A stretch of 26,266 nucleotides of DNA from a virus (Duplodnaviria; Heunggongvirae; Uroviricota; Caudoviricetes). Position 1 is the first letter of the stretch. Every line of letters starts with the position of its first letter. Position numbers: made by a program. Shown in pieces: positions 1 through 3,000 of the stretch. The stretch lies in the IMG/VR virus record IMGVR_UViG_2534682139_000013; one strand, 5' to 3'.

Positions 1-3000
1 ACCTGCCATATCCGCCAGGTCTGCACGGAATTTATCAACCAGCGCACCAAACTGTGCTGCGTGATTTGCCGGCGTACCGCCAAAATCAAATTCCCCCTGC
101 ATCCACACCACGGCAAACAGCACATTTTTCGGATTCTTCTTCAGTGCTGCTTTTGTTCGACCGATAAGGTCCTTATACAGCGGCTTGTCCACACCCCAGC
201 GGGTTGAATTCTCCGAAGCACCACTCGCGTCACTGTATGTGCCATCAGCTCCGGTGGTGAACGCTGAACCACCACGACAGCACGGAACCAGCAGAATGCC
301 CGCATTCGCCGGTATAAACGGCAGCAGTTTTTTGGCGATATGCAGCCCCTGCCCCACGGTTCCGTACTGCCCCTTTGACAGGTCCGCTTTCGGATGGTTA
401 AGGCGGCTCATGTCCTGCACATCATGCAGACAATGGTCCGCCGGAATGATGTCGTTATATTTGCATGCTGCACCGCCCGGTGTCACCGTACTGCGGCGCG
501 CCAGCTGCTTAATACGCGGGTCCGGACGGTCATATGTCTCCGGCAGCGGAAGACCTTCACCATACGACATGCCATTTGACTGCCCTGCCAGAACCACAAC
601 AAAGTAATACTCCGGGTCGCTGGTGGCACTGACAGCCACCGCCTTACCCTCATTACCGGTCACCGCCACTGGTGTGGTGACATCACCTTCCGCCGCAATG
701 GCCTGCATCAGGGTATAAGGGGTTATGGCCACCGGACTACCAAACGGCTGCCAGCCCTCTTTCAGTTTGTGTGTCAGCTTTTCCGCAAGGTCTGACGGCG
801 ACGCCGCCCTGACAACATCATAATGTTTAAATGTCATTATTCCTCCCGGCCGGGATAGTGTATTAAATCAGATATGGAGTGGGCTGTAGTCCGGAAGCCT
901 GAATGACACACGGGGACTACAGCCCGAAATACGAAAAAGGCCGCGCAGTTGCGCAGCCTTATGAATCCTGGTTAAAATCCGCACGATAAAAATGACAATG
1001 CAAGTATCTCATGCTGTTGCCCGAACCCACTCGGGCTTTTTTTTGCATGTAAAAAGGCTCCTGCGATGAGGAGCCTGGATATATGCCTAATCTCTGTATA
1101 CAGCATGATGCCGGGTGCCTCCCGGTGAGTTCGGCCTGGTGCCACCAAACCCGCGTATTCTCGCTTACGATCATCAAAGAGATCATACCGTTCACCAGTC
1201 GCCCCTCCGCACAGGGGGATTCACCATGCAGAAATTTTCTAACACATCTATTATCAGACCGGCAACAACTGACTGAATTGAGATGTATTTAACATTTATG
1301 AATCTCCGCCTGCTATTTTCACTGAGCTATTCTGAGTCAACGAAAAATAACTTCGCTGAATCCCCCTCCATTATGACAGGCATTAGTTTTAATGGTTACA
1401 GTCATCCCCGTAATTTGCGCACTGAGAAGAAGAGACTGAAGATTCCATCTGTTGGTAAATAATTCTTTATCACCCACTTTAACTGTAAAGGTATCGTCAT
1501 CATTATATTTTGTATACTCCACCTTTCCAGTTACACAATCAGGCGTCGCCAGCGCACTTGCTGAAAAAAATGAAAGCGATGCAGCTATTAATAATGTTTT
1601 TTTCATTTTACCCCCTCAACTGCTAATAGTTCTGCGCATCAGAATTGCCCCCAGAGTGGATGAATCCCACAATATTTTATTGTGCGTAATCCCACGGACT
1701 CTTCCATCTGCCGGACACATAGAAGGAAACTCATCAGATGCCATTCTGGCAACTCGCGATGCATGATGATGACAATTCAGTATTAATGCCACGCTTCCCA
1801 GAATTGCATTAATGCTTCCAAAAGAAATTCTTCCTACACGAACAGAGTCTTGTCCATGATAGTCAGGCAGGACGCTACTCAACCTTCCCCAGTTCAATGT
1901 AAGATCAACATCTTCAGCAGTCATTACATAAGAACGCCCACTGAGATCATCCAGTGTTGTACGAAATCCCCTCTGTATTTGCCGAAAACGTAAAGCTTCA
2001 GCTGTCACAGTAACAAACCGTAACATCGCTCTTGCCACAGACTGCGTCAGTGAGGTTCCACTATGCGACATTAAATCCAGATAAGAAGTAGTCAACGAAT
2101 GGCGATTTATCTGCATCCCCGTACGACTGATCCCTGCAACACGCTGTAACGTGGTATAGCTACTGTCACCAGACAATGTAACCGCTGTTGTACCTGGAAA
2201 GGTAACATGTGAAAAATCAGCAAAGCGATAAAAAACATTATTTGTCCTGTTAACAAATCCTGTCACATATAAATTATTTCGTTCAACAATAAGCCGTAGA
2301 TTATTAAACCGCCCTTCCTCTGGATCTATCCCTCTGACATCAACTGCAAACAAATTATCCCCTGTGCCACTATCAATCATCAGTAAAGACGTACCTCCTG
2401 ATGAAATAGTCTGTAATGGAGTACCTATTGCAGAGCGAATGACATTCAGCGAATCTACATACGTCTTTGCAGTCGAGAAGTCTAAGGTAAATTCCTTCGC
2501 CACCACATTAACTGAAAAGATAACAAAGAAAAAAGTTAGCACTCTAAAAATAATTATTTTCATATTACACAATACTCCTTGAGCACCATACGATAACTAT
2601 ATTCTTGACATCCTCCACGCCCTGAAGGACGGCGTTTTACGGCGCACCGGATAAACGTAACAATAACGTAATGAAAATGATAATCATATTCAAAGAGAGC
2701 TGCAACCTTAACATATCTGGTCAGATCTCATGCGACTACTTGACGTACGTAGATAACAACATTTATTGATACACAGGATGTTACGGACATAAAAAAGCCA
2801 GCCACTGGGGGAGGCTGGCAAACTCGTAGAGCAAAATGCTGTTACGCAAACTTCGTTACAGGGTCATCCTGCAATACAAAAAATACACAATATTTAGAAA
2901 ACTAATAGTGCCATGTGCAATTTTTAAGATTTTGTTATTAATTGTGGTCGCACCTTCCTTTCTGTGTACTTTCCGTATAGCTCACAGGATTCTGGGTACA

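What the first reader, a model, noticed from the sequence alone, without database searches (positions are those of the whole stretch)
881..1075. Back-to-back terminators and a 12-bp perfect inverted repeat between stx1B and the esterase gene
Two hairpins with facing T/A tracts (1019-1044 plus-oriented, 1051-1075 minus-oriented) could terminate transcription from both directions. Just before the esterase start, GGGCTGTAGTCC (881-892) pairs perfectly with GGACTACAGCCC (914-925) around a 21-nt loop. This suggests structured regulation of expression downstream of the toxin genes.
Basis: seen in the sequence. Interest (0 to 1): 0.4.

Follow-up and report, generated by a model that had tools for sequence, protein, structure and literature searches.

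The report
Convergent phage small RNAs after stx1B
The two "back-to-back terminators" are the ends of two already-described small regulatory RNA genes that face each other downstream of the Shiga toxin 1 genes, and the 12-bp inverted repeat is a conserved RNA stem-loop of unknown role in the leader of the esterase gene.

Summary
The minus-oriented hairpin (stem 1076-1055, U-run 1054-1050) is the terminator of a full-length STnc100-family sRNA gene (1258-1045, 190.7 bits against a gathering score of 47). This family is EcOnc27/28/42 in Tree et al. 2014. The plus-oriented hairpin (1019-1036, T8 to 1044) is the terminator of a short AgvB/AsxR-family "anti-sRNA". Window 990-1040 is identical to the published EcOnc03 sequence. 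Tree et al. 2014 already described such convergent sRNA pairs 3' of stx in lambdoid prophages, so this part is known.

It overlaps the probable -35 element of the EcOnc03 promoter.

The 12-bp perfect inverted repeat (881-892/914-925) is the only one in the window and folds at -27.2 kcal/mol (z = -6.5). It recurs upstream of esterase genes in four sequence types. Three stem positions have changed on both sides. Many G·U pairs form only on the late-transcript strand. It is therefore a conserved stem-loop in the esterase 5' leader. It has no Rfam match, and I found no description of it in the papers I read. Its function is not established. My preferred guess is mRNA stabilisation or processing.

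The parts
1337..1606 (-). stx1B coding sequence; the upstream boundary of the spacer
   Evidence: ORF of 89 aa at 1337..1606 on the minus strand. Deposited records annotate it as Shiga toxin 1 subunit B.
1045..1258 (-). STnc100-family sRNA gene, the counterpart of EcOnc27/EcOnc28/EcOnc42 of E. coli O157 Sakai
   Evidence: Rfam RF02076 scores 190.7 bits against a gathering score of 47, covering model positions 1-206 of 206. The EcOnc27 probe sequence in Tree 2014 Table S matches the 3' part of the homologous RNA in AsxR-type loci such as L050.
1050..1076 (-). Intrinsic terminator T1 of the STnc100-family sRNA. It is also the first terminator met by stx1AB transcripts that lack Q modification.
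   Evidence: Stem 1076-1055 of 8 bp followed by TTTTT. Folds at -13.5 kcal/mol, z = -4.0. It forms the closing helix of the Rfam STnc100 alignment.
984..1044 (+). Anti-sRNA gene of the AgvB/AsxR family; identical to EcOnc03
   Evidence: Rfam AgvB 56.6 bits (gathering 56) and AsxR 46.8 bits (gathering 63). Window 990-1040 matches the EcOnc03 sequence printed in Tree 2014 Fig. S4 exactly.
1019..1044 (+). Intrinsic terminator T2 of EcOnc03
   Evidence: Stem 1019-1036 (GCCCGA/TCGGGC) followed by T8.
949..978 (+). Probable EcOnc03 promoter: -35 TTGCGC (949-954), 18-nt spacer, -10 TAAAAT (973-978)
   Evidence: Read from the sequence and placed relative to the 5' ends that Tree 2014 mapped for this family. 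TGCGCAA is invariant in 15 divergent relatives, and the -10 position holds TAAAAT or TATTAT. The consensus promoter scan did not call this site, so the assignment is an inference.
927..960 (-). Third hairpin, T3: a sense-direction intrinsic-terminator-like element that overlaps the -35 of the EcOnc03 promoter
   Evidence: 10-bp stem at 960-937 followed by TTTCGTATTT. Folds at -18.3 kcal/mol, z = -4.7 on the sense strand against -14.8 on the other strand. The sense strand is the more stable in 22 of 24 variants.
881..925 (-). Conserved stem-loop in the esterase 5' leader; this is the 12-bp perfect inverted repeat
   Evidence: Repeat confirmed. Folds at -27.2 kcal/mol, z = -6.5. 88.9% of alignment cells are paired, against 31-44% when the partner columns are slid. 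In four sequence types, 203 of 228 cells pair on the sense strand against 164 of 228 on the antisense strand, with double-sided changes at three positions.
842..855 (-). Ribosome-binding region of the esterase: Shine-Dalgarno GGGAGG (847-842) inside the palindrome TCCCGGCCGGGA (855-844)
   Evidence: Read from the sequence and repeat I4. Invariant in relatives except for the central base.
1..837 (-). 5' part of the nanS-p-type sialate O-acetylesterase gene (ATG at 837-835); it runs off the window
   Evidence: Translation of window:1-837:- found 450 relatives. RefSeq annotates it as SASA family carbohydrate esterase or as a DUF6645 protein.

Best explanation
The 500-bp spacer between stx1B and the esterase gene is a compact non-coding RNA module of lambdoid prophages. 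It is not a bare insulator.

Reading in the late-operon direction (the window's minus strand), the elements are:
1. An STnc100-family sRNA gene (1258-1045) that ends at intrinsic terminator T1 (1076-1050).
2. Six bases further on, and facing it, the short Hfq-dependent anti-sRNA EcOnc03 (plus strand, about 984/990 to 1044), with its own terminator T2 (1019-1044).
3. A second sense-direction terminator T3 (960-927), whose loop and one arm carry the -35 of the EcOnc03 promoter.
4. A 12-bp stem-loop (925-881) in the leader of the esterase mRNA.
5. The ribosome-binding site and the ATG at 837.

Shown here: the identity of the two sRNA genes, the three terminator-like structures, and conservation of the stem-loop as a sense-strand RNA structure.

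Inferred from established lambdoid biology: in a lysogen, T1 and T3 stop sRNA transcripts and Pstx1 transcripts before the esterase and lysis genes. The two sRNAs are then made as separate Hfq-bound regulators. After induction, Q-modified RNA polymerase from PR' reads through T1 and T3. It crosses the EcOnc03 gene in the antisense direction and transcribes the leader, the esterase gene and the lysis genes.

For the stem-loop itself I favour a role in the late or esterase mRNA as a 5'-proximal protective or processing-boundary structure. It sits directly after the AU-rich tail of T3. This last step is a guess, at roughly one chance in three.
For: **Rfam.** STnc100 scores 190.7 bits (gathering 47) at full length on the minus strand, and AgvB scores 56.6 bits (gathering 56) on the plus strand.

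**Identity to a published sRNA.** Window 990-1040 is identical to EcOnc03. Tree 2014 Table S2 lists EcOnc03 at 56/54/51 nt, destabilised without Hfq, and paired with EcOnc28. After a +135 coordinate shift, the Sakai Sp9 locus shows exactly this pair and the same order of elements.

**Published description of the arrangement.** Tree 2014 states that convergent sRNA pairs lie 3' of PR' at the moron site in Sp5 and in Sp3, 4, 9, 10, 11, 15 and 17. Sy 2020 states that stx1AB is 'bookended' by sRNAs. Zhu et al. [quoted passage not shown]

**Structure.** The terminator scan and folding z-scores support all three terminators.

**Conservation.** An alignment of 15 divergent loci keeps the order of all elements, even where the convergent sRNA belongs to a different sequence family.

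**Stem-loop.** 88.9% of cells are paired, against 31-44% for slid controls. Across 30 variants the mean folding energy is -21.3 on the sense strand and -18.6 on the antisense strand. In type III the values are -18 to -23 (sense) against -2.5 to -12 (antisense). Double-sided changes occur at three stem positions across four types.

**No separate promoter.** No sigma-70-like promoter was found on the sense strand between stx1B and the esterase. This fits esterase expression from the late transcript.
Against: - No expression, 5'-end or 3'-end data exist for this exact phage. The experimental support comes from identical or homologous sequences in strain Sakai.
- The AgvB score only just reaches the gathering score, and the AsxR score is below it.
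- Covariation in the stem-loop is modest. In the tool-made alignment only one pair has a double-sided change, and the covariation score is 0.089 against 0.081 for shuffles, with 8 of 500 shuffles reaching it. The stronger compensatory evidence rests on my hand-registered comparison of four sequence types. Those types may represent only three or four evolutionary events.
- Some esterase loci lack the stem-loop altogether (types L002, L014, L018, L034 and L260). It is therefore not essential for esterase expression.
- The proposed stabiliser role has no direct support.
Confidence: 0.85

Rival explanations
1. The two facing hairpins are only a bidirectional transcriptional insulator between the toxin moron and the esterase/lysis genes. 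No functional RNA products are involved.
For: Both are canonical terminator shapes with facing T and A runs. Morons typically carry their own terminator. T1 would indeed stop Pstx1 transcripts.
Against: The sequences upstream of each terminator match curated sRNA families over their full length. The plus-strand one is identical to an Hfq-bound RNA confirmed by northern blot. Nothing else on the plus strand would need terminating here. The pair is conserved as a unit next to esterase genes that have no toxin gene upstream.
Confidence: 0.04
2. The 12-bp inverted repeat acts at the DNA level, as a protein operator, a cruciform or a recombination site, rather than as an RNA structure.
For: In this window the repeat is perfect, so both strands and the duplex are symmetric. 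Mosaic junctions between module types lie near the conserved arms; for example, L050 and L130 combine a type I-like 5' flank with a type II loop.
Against: In relatives the stem is kept through G·U pairs, which would be A·C mismatches on the other strand and asymmetric in DNA. 203 of 228 cells are paired on the sense strand against 164 of 228 on the antisense strand. Type III hairpins fold at -18 to -23 kcal/mol on the sense strand but only -2.5 to -12 on the antisense strand. A 21-28 nt variable spacer is unusual for a dimeric operator.
Confidence: 0.07
3. The stem-loop is a cis-regulatory element of esterase translation or processing, not a passive stabiliser. It could be an RNase III site. 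It could also display or hide the invariant UUCCGG/CUUCC loop segment, which can pair with the GGGAGG Shine-Dalgarno sequence about 45 nt downstream.
For: TTCCGG at the 3' side of the loop is invariant in types I-III, while the rest of the loop varies. CUUCC is complementary to GGAGG with one wobble pair; this is read directly from the sequence. ECs2972, the Sp15 esterase, is among the top 50 Hfq-bound coding sequences.
Against: The stem is 12-14 bp, shorter than the roughly two helical turns typical of RNase III substrates. The minimum-energy and centroid folds of the whole leader do not pair the loop with the Shine-Dalgarno sequence. Both partners are invariant, so there is no covariation to test. 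The Sp9 type has GGCCGG instead of TTCCGG.
Confidence: 0.2
4. The spacer encodes small proteins, and the hairpins are incidental. Candidate ORFs lie at 959-1195 (minus, 78 aa), 972-1148 (minus), 1083-1292 (plus) and 868-984 (minus). Phage record FJ184280 annotates two 'conserved hypothetical proteins' here.
For: The ORFs exist mechanically, and one deposited record annotates hypothetical proteins under the match (H1).
Against: The A-run between the two terminators varies from 6 to 13 bases among relatives. Other indels are also not multiples of three, and both kinds break these frames. RefSeq annotation of identical sequence has no gene here (H41-H43). The same bases are explained by full-length structured-RNA matches.
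Confidence: 0.03

Closest known systems
Convergent sRNA pairs at the moron site of lambdoid prophages of E. coli O157 (Tree et al. 2014, Mol Cell 55:199, PMC4104026): AsxR/EcOnc27 in the Stx2 phage Sp5, EcOnc03/EcOnc28 in Sp9, and AgvB with its partner in Sp10 and Sp17
   Same: The architecture and position are the same: a long sense sRNA and a short antisense-oriented anti-sRNA whose terminators face each other, 3' of the cargo gene and 5' of the esterase gene. The short RNA is identical in sequence to EcOnc03.
   Different: In this window the EcOnc03-type module sits behind stx1AB. In strain Sakai, EcOnc03 is in the toxin-less prophage Sp9. The Sakai Stx1 prophage Sp15 carries a different convergent sRNA and a different 3' half of the long sRNA. 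The mosaic breakpoint lies at about window 1103. EcOnc03 has no known target.
AgvB (RF02702) and AsxR (RF02703) anti-sRNAs
   Same: The roughly 42-nt 3' region and the terminator are shared, as are the length class (51-60 nt) and the A-rich 5' region (alignments, Fig. S4).
   Different: The 5' variable region is CGAUAAAAAUGACAAUGCA. It lacks the CACAACA motif that AgvB uses to mimic GcvB targets, and it differs from the AsxR 5' end. Its predicted duplexes with GcvB, FnrS and MicA are no better than those of shuffled sequences, whereas the AgvB-GcvB control stands out.
STnc100 (RF02076) / PasD family of prophage sRNAs
   Same: Full-length, high-scoring match. [quoted passage not shown] 2026, PMC12711010 and PMC12370729.
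   Different: No function has been established for the family. The window copy is a mosaic. Its 5' two-thirds are 98% identical to the Sakai Sp15 copy, and its 3' end and terminator are of the Sp9/YYZ-2008 type.
5'-terminal stabilising stem-loops of E. coli mRNAs, with the ompA 5' UTR as the paradigm (from general knowledge, not tested here)
   Same: A stable stem-loop in a 5' leader, preceded by only a short AU-rich single-stranded stretch.
   Different: No 5' end has been mapped next to this hairpin. It lies inside a polycistronic late transcript, so a processing step would have to create the 5' end. The resemblance is a hypothesis only.

Membership tests
AgvB/AsxR-type anti-sRNA family (Tree et al. 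2014; Rfam RF02702, RF02703) | Short RNA (51-60 nt) with a conserved 3' region of about 42 nt, including a Rho-independent terminator, and a variable 5' region of 14-18 nt | tested here: met
   The cmscan alignments cover the full models. Window 990-1040 is identical to the published EcOnc03 sequence.
AgvB/AsxR-type anti-sRNA family (Tree et al. 2014; Rfam RF02702, RF02703) | Score at or above the Rfam gathering score | tested here: inconclusive
   AgvB scores 56.6 against 56, which is just met. AsxR scores 46.8 against 63, which is not met. The RNA belongs to the wider family but is neither AgvB nor AsxR proper.
AgvB/AsxR-type anti-sRNA family (Tree et al. 2014; Rfam RF02702, RF02703) | Encoded convergently with a longer sRNA, 3' of PR' at the moron site of a lambdoid prophage | tested here: met
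   The gene order Q, stx1AB, STnc100-like, EcOnc03 (opposite strand), esterase was established. The same order is seen in Sp9 and Sp17.
AgvB/AsxR-type anti-sRNA family (Tree et al. 2014; Rfam RF02702, RF02703) | Hfq binding and Hfq-dependent stability | not testable with these tools
   Reported for the identical sequence in Sakai Sp9 (Table S2 of PMC4104026).
AgvB/AsxR-type anti-sRNA family (Tree et al. 2014; Rfam RF02702, RF02703) | The 5' region pairs with and antagonises a core-genome sRNA (sponge activity) | tested here: inconclusive
   Only three candidates were tested. Duplex energies with MicA, GcvB and FnrS were -9.7, -11.5 and -9.3 kcal/mol, and 16-49% of shuffles did as well. The AgvB-GcvB control gave -19.4, reached by 2.2% of shuffles.
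AgvB proper (anti-GcvB) | The CACAACA motif in the 5' region, which mimics GcvB targets | tested here: not met
   The window's 5' region is CGAUAAAAAUGACAAUGCA. Canonical AgvB is seen in L055, L062 and Sp17 instead.
STnc100 (RF02076) | Full-length match to the covariance model above the gathering score | tested here: met
   190.7 bits against 47, model positions 1-206 of 206, E = 3.6e-45.
STnc100 (RF02076) | Expressed as a discrete sRNA | not testable with these tools
   Homologues EcOnc27 (about 235/247 nt) and EcOnc06 (about 177 nt) were detected by northern blot in Sakai. STnc100 was detected by qPCR in outer membrane vesicles.
Rho-independent (intrinsic) terminators | G+C-rich stem-loop followed directly by a U-run on the transcribed strand | tested here: met
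   T1 (1076-1055 plus T5), T2 (1019-1036 plus T8) and T3 (960-937 plus TTTCGTATTT) were all called by the scan. Their folding z-scores are -4.0 for T1 and -4.7 for T3.
Rho-independent (intrinsic) terminators | Transcript 3' ends map to the U-run | not testable with these tools
   Term-seq for Sakai exists (GSE143631, Sy et al. 2020), but the data are not held here.
Intrinsic terminator, as a reading of the 12-bp inverted repeat at 881-925 | A U-run immediately 3' of the stem | tested here: not met
   On the sense strand the stem is followed by ACUCCAUAUCUG, and on the plus strand by GAAAUACGAAAAAGG. The scan did not call it.
RNase III processing site, as a reading of the 12-bp inverted repeat | A helix of about 20 bp or more (from general knowledge) | tested here: not met
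   The stem is 12-14 bp in all four types.
Any curated Rfam family, for the 881-925 stem-loop | A match at or above the gathering score | tested here: not met
   The only hit is a sub-threshold match to Leu_leader (28 bits against 50). It merely reflects a hairpin followed by a second hairpin. Nothing reached the gathering threshold.

The most novel reading that the evidence does not exclude
The stem-loop at 925-881 may be an undescribed cis-acting RNA element of lambdoid late operons. Together with terminator T3, which overlaps the anti-sRNA promoter, it could couple the lysogeny-to-lysis switch to two events. First, it could control the stability, processing or translation of the esterase and lysis mRNA. 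Second, Q-driven read-through crosses the EcOnc03 gene in the antisense direction, which could shut off EcOnc03 through promoter occlusion plus a perfectly complementary transcript. A further possibility is that EcOnc03, carried here on an Stx1a phage, sponges a host sRNA that has not yet been identified.
Probability: 0.25. Interest if true: 0.45.

Novelty: already known. Interest (0 to 1): 0.25.

Why it matters
The spacer between the toxin genes and the lysis region of Stx phages carries trans-acting regulators that rewire host sRNA networks. AgvB antagonises GcvB, and AsxR antagonises FnrS. SNPs in the STnc100/EcOnc27 gene were among the strongest predictors of haemolytic uraemic syndrome in a 2025 machine-learning study (PMC12711010).

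This result shows that a common Stx1a phage type (YYZ-2008 and many O157:H7 strains) carries the EcOnc03-type module, not the one described for Sakai Sp15. That is a useful annotation point, because most deposited records leave the spacer blank or annotate spurious ORFs.

The conserved leader stem-loop and the overlap of terminator and promoter are small, testable additions. They would matter only if they prove to control esterase or lysis expression, or silencing of the anti-sRNA on induction.

Tried and rejected
1. **EcOnc03 as an anti-MicA sponge.** The idea came from a complementarity recalled from memory. With the real MicA sequence the duplex is -9.7 kcal/mol, and 16% of shuffled 5' regions do as well. 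GcvB and FnrS are no better. Rejected as unsupported.

2. **A Tree 2014 Hfq peak on the leader stem-loop.** I asked whether EcOnc06 (Sp17) marks the stem-loop. After the +135 shift between genome versions, validated on EcOnc03, EcOnc06 falls in the STnc100-like body. No reported peak sits on the hairpin.

3. **A promoter for the esterase in or near the hairpin.** The scan found none on the sense strand. My manual search found only weak hexamers.

4. **First collection scan for hairpin relatives.** It used a gap of 35-62 nt and so missed the main classes, whose gap is 34 nt. I repeated it with 26-34 nt.

5. **Genome-wide species scan.** It gave a single locus, so the diversity analysed here comes from viral contigs and three Sakai prophages.

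6. **Sy et al. 2020 supplementary TSS and Term-seq tables.** They are not held as text, so no 3'-end data could be checked.

7. **The MAFFT alignment of hairpins.** It placed the type III 5' arm out of register. The tool count therefore omits the type III upper stem. I complemented it with a hand-registered table.
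Full report
**Layout.** The window is an Stx1a-converting lambdoid phage. Positions 820-1340 are 100% identical to phage YYZ-2008 (FJ184280) and to several Stx1a phages and O157:H7 chromosomes. All genes in this part lie on the minus strand:
- a Q-like antiterminator gene at 3603-3070;
- stx1A at 2563-1616;
- stx1B at 1606-1337;
- a nanS-p-type esterase gene whose ATG is at 837 and which runs off the left end.

The late-transcript "sense" direction is therefore the minus strand. The finding covers the 3' half of the 500-bp stx1B-esterase spacer.

**Checking the observation.** The terminator scan found a plus-strand site (stem 1019-1036, then T8) and a minus-strand site (stem 1076-1055, then T5). 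The region held six sites against 2.2 +/- 1.5 in shuffles. The perfect 12-nt inverted repeat at 881-892/914-925 with a 21-nt loop is real. It is the only such repeat in the 26-kb window. Shuffles give 0.1 per window, and 6.5% of shuffles hold at least one. As RNA on the sense strand it folds at -27.2 kcal/mol (z = -6.5). T3 folds at -18.3 (z = -4.7) and T1 at -13.5 (z = -4.0). The whole 293-nt leader has z = -5.1.

**What the facing terminators are.** A scan against Rfam gives a full-length STnc100 match on the minus strand at 1258-1045 (190.7 bits, gathering 47). Its closing helix is the 1076-1055 hairpin. On the plus strand at 984-1043 there is an AgvB match (56.6 bits, gathering 56) and an AsxR match (46.8 bits, gathering 63). 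Their terminator is the 1019-1036 hairpin. The "back-to-back terminators" are therefore the 3' ends of two convergent small-RNA genes whose U-runs lie six bases apart.

Tree et al. 2014 (PMC4104026) describe exactly this arrangement: [quoted passage not shown]. Their example is AsxR/EcOnc27 behind stx2B in Sp5, and they also list Sp3, 4, 9, 10, 11, 15 and 17. Their Fig. S4 prints EcOnc03, and that sequence is identical to window 990-1040. Their Table S2 lists EcOnc03 as 56/~54/51 nt, destabilised in an hfq mutant, and adjacent to EcOnc28 on the other strand.

I fetched the Sakai Sp9 locus. The EcOnc03 gene lies at the published peak plus 135 bases, which is the offset between genome versions. 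EcOnc28 falls in the STnc100-like body, and the order of elements matches the window. Sy et al. 2020 likewise say that stx1AB is "bookended" by sRNAs. [quoted passage not shown] This part of the finding is already known.

**A point specific to this phage.** Sakai's own Stx1 prophage, Sp15, does not carry this version. It matches the window at 98.3% only from 1103 upward, and at 88% over 1-956. The stretch holding the terminators and the anti-sRNA is a different module. There is thus a mosaic junction inside the STnc100-like gene. The window's Stx1a phage type combines the toxin with the EcOnc03-type module that Sakai carries in the toxin-less prophage Sp9.

An alignment of 15 divergent esterase-upstream regions shows that the order is conserved: sense sRNA terminator, A-run, convergent sRNA, promoter region, T3, stem-loop, ribosome-binding site. 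This holds even where the convergent sRNA belongs to another sequence family. L055 and L062 carry canonical AgvB, and L050 carries canonical AsxR. The window and L024 carry the EcOnc03 5' region. The module is widespread: 1319 of 5426 complete E. coli genomes hold a match, with a median of 3 and up to 10 places per genome.

**The third hairpin and the anti-sRNA promoter.** On the plus strand, TAAAAT (973-978) lies 6-12 nt upstream of the family's mapped 5' ends, and TTGCGC (949-954) lies 18 nt further upstream. TGCGCAA is invariant in all 15 relatives, and the -10 position reads TAAAAT or TATTAT. The -35 sits in the loop and one arm of T3. The consensus scan did not call this promoter, so the assignment is an inference from homology.

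T3 itself behaves as a sense-strand RNA hairpin. The sense strand is the more stable in 22 of 24 variants, and substitutions in the 3' arm are of the C-to-U (G·U) type. From established lambdoid biology I infer three things. T1 and T3 together keep sRNA transcripts and Pstx1 transcripts out of the esterase and lysis genes during lysogeny. Q-modified polymerase reads through both. That read-through crosses EcOnc03 in the antisense direction.

**The 12-bp inverted repeat.** I collected esterase-upstream regions from viral contigs and from three Sakai prophages. The stem-loop occurs in four sequence types:
- Type I: GGGCUGUAGUCC...GGACUACAGCCC. This is the window's type and is also found next to AgvB in Sp10/Sp17-like loci.
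- Type II: GCGGGCUGUAGUC...GACUUCAGCCCGC, with one U·U mismatch.
- Type III: GCGGGCUGUUUUUC...GGAGGGCAGCCUGU.
- Type IV (Sp9): GCGGGCUGCGGUUC...GGACCGUGGCCCGC.

Every one of 16 and then 30 distinct variants folds into the hairpin, at -16 to -28 kcal/mol. On a MAFFT alignment of 25 variants, 88.9% of cells form standard pairs, against 31-44% when the partner columns are slid. Most variation is one-sided (G-C to G-U), and only one pair shows a double-sided change. The covariation score is 0.089 against 0.081 for shuffles, with 8 of 500 shuffles reaching it. That alignment puts the type III upper stem out of register.

In a hand-registered table of 19 variants, 203 of 228 cells pair on the sense strand. 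If the same positions are read on the other strand, 164 of 228 pair. Double-sided changes occur at stem positions 7 (U-A to C-G), 8 (A-U to U·G and to G-C) and 9 (G-C to U·G). Type III hairpins fold at -18 to -23 kcal/mol on the sense strand but only -2.5 to -12 on the antisense strand.

I conclude that this is a conserved RNA stem-loop on the late or esterase transcript, and that the perfect repeat in this window is its most regular version. The evidence is moderate, not overwhelming, because the four types may represent only a few evolutionary events. Some esterase loci have unrelated leaders that lack the stem-loop.

**What the stem-loop does.**
- It is not a terminator, because no U-run follows it on either strand.
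- It is shorter than typical RNase III substrates.
- It has no Rfam match at gathering level.
- None of the papers I read on nanS-p or on these sRNAs mentions it.
- No sense-strand promoter was found between stx1B and the esterase gene, so the esterase is most probably read from the late transcript.

The hairpin follows the AU-rich tail of T3 by only a few bases. My preferred hypothesis is therefore that it forms a protective 5'-proximal structure, or a processing boundary, for the esterase and lysis mRNA. An alternative rests on the invariant UUCCGG at the 3' side of the loop. The overlapping CUUCC could pair with the GGGAGG Shine-Dalgarno sequence and so modulate translation. The predicted fold of the leader does not show this pairing. 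Neither idea is tested.

**Other readings considered.**
- Small ORFs overlap the spacer, and one record annotates hypothetical proteins there. However, the A-run between the terminators varies from 6 to 13 bases, and other indels also break the frames.
- A target for EcOnc03 could not be identified. Its 5' region lacks the AgvB CACAACA motif. Its predicted duplexes with MicA, GcvB and FnrS are no better than those of shuffled sequences, whereas the AgvB-GcvB control stands out.

**Verdict.** The facing terminators belong to a known convergent sRNA pair, an STnc100-family sRNA and the anti-sRNA EcOnc03. The inverted repeat is a conserved leader stem-loop for which I found no published description and whose function is unknown. 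Overall the finding is ordinary for Stx and lambdoid prophages and of low to moderate interest.

Noticed in passing
window 1090-1110 (compared with L082, Sakai Sp15): A mosaic junction lies inside the STnc100-like gene. The window is 98.3% identical to Sakai Sp15 from 1103 to 3700. The stretch 957-1102, which holds the sRNA 3' end, both facing terminators and the anti-sRNA, has no match in the fetched Sp15 stretch and is of the Sp9/EcOnc03 type.
   Followed up: partly
window 844-855 (minus strand): The palindrome TCCCGGCCGGGA overlaps the esterase Shine-Dalgarno sequence (GGGAGG, 847-842). It is invariant in relatives except for its central base (G, A or C). This fits a small CCC/GGG hairpin that partly sequesters the ribosome-binding site.
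   Followed up: no
window 2790-3050 (minus strand): This is the PR'-tR' short-transcript region, StxS/EcOnc15 of Sy et al. 2020. One terminator-like hairpin lies at 2822-2796 with a T-run to 2790. Using the +135 coordinate shift, it maps onto the published StxS 3' end. A second terminator-like site lies at 3024-3005, just downstream of the Q stop codon.
   Followed up: partly
window 1044-1051; alignment A1 columns 72-85: The A/T run between the two convergent terminators varies in length, from 6 to 13 bases, among otherwise similar loci.
   Followed up: no
L168 and L182 (viral contigs), just after the T3-like element: The leader stem-loop is interrupted after its 5' arm and part of the loop (GCGGGCTGTAGTCTCCCTTCTGCC|GGGTGTCC...). 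This suggests an insertion or rearrangement within the hairpin loop.
   Followed up: no
L260, L259, L285 and relatives (viral contigs), 150 nt upstream of the esterase ATG: A fifth type of esterase leader lacks the long stem-loop. It keeps a T3-like terminator (GGCTGCGCATGGCGTGGCC followed by T8) and carries TTCCGG twice (GATTCCGGTTCCGGCTTTTT).
   Followed up: no
window 5877-6075 (minus), 10728-10844 (plus), 17218-17276 (plus), 24547-24662 (plus): Other Rfam matches at gathering level: C4 antisense RNA (5877-5960), isrK (5986-6062) and c4-a1b1 (6023-6075); two ALIL pseudoknots, which suggest two IS3-family insertion sequences; and the lambda cIII thermoregulator element.
   Followed up: no
window 868-1292, both strands: Phage record FJ184280 annotates two 'conserved hypothetical proteins' over the sRNA genes. 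RefSeq records of identical sequence annotate nothing here. Most deposited Stx phage records list no feature under the spacer apart from the flanking genes.
   Followed up: partly
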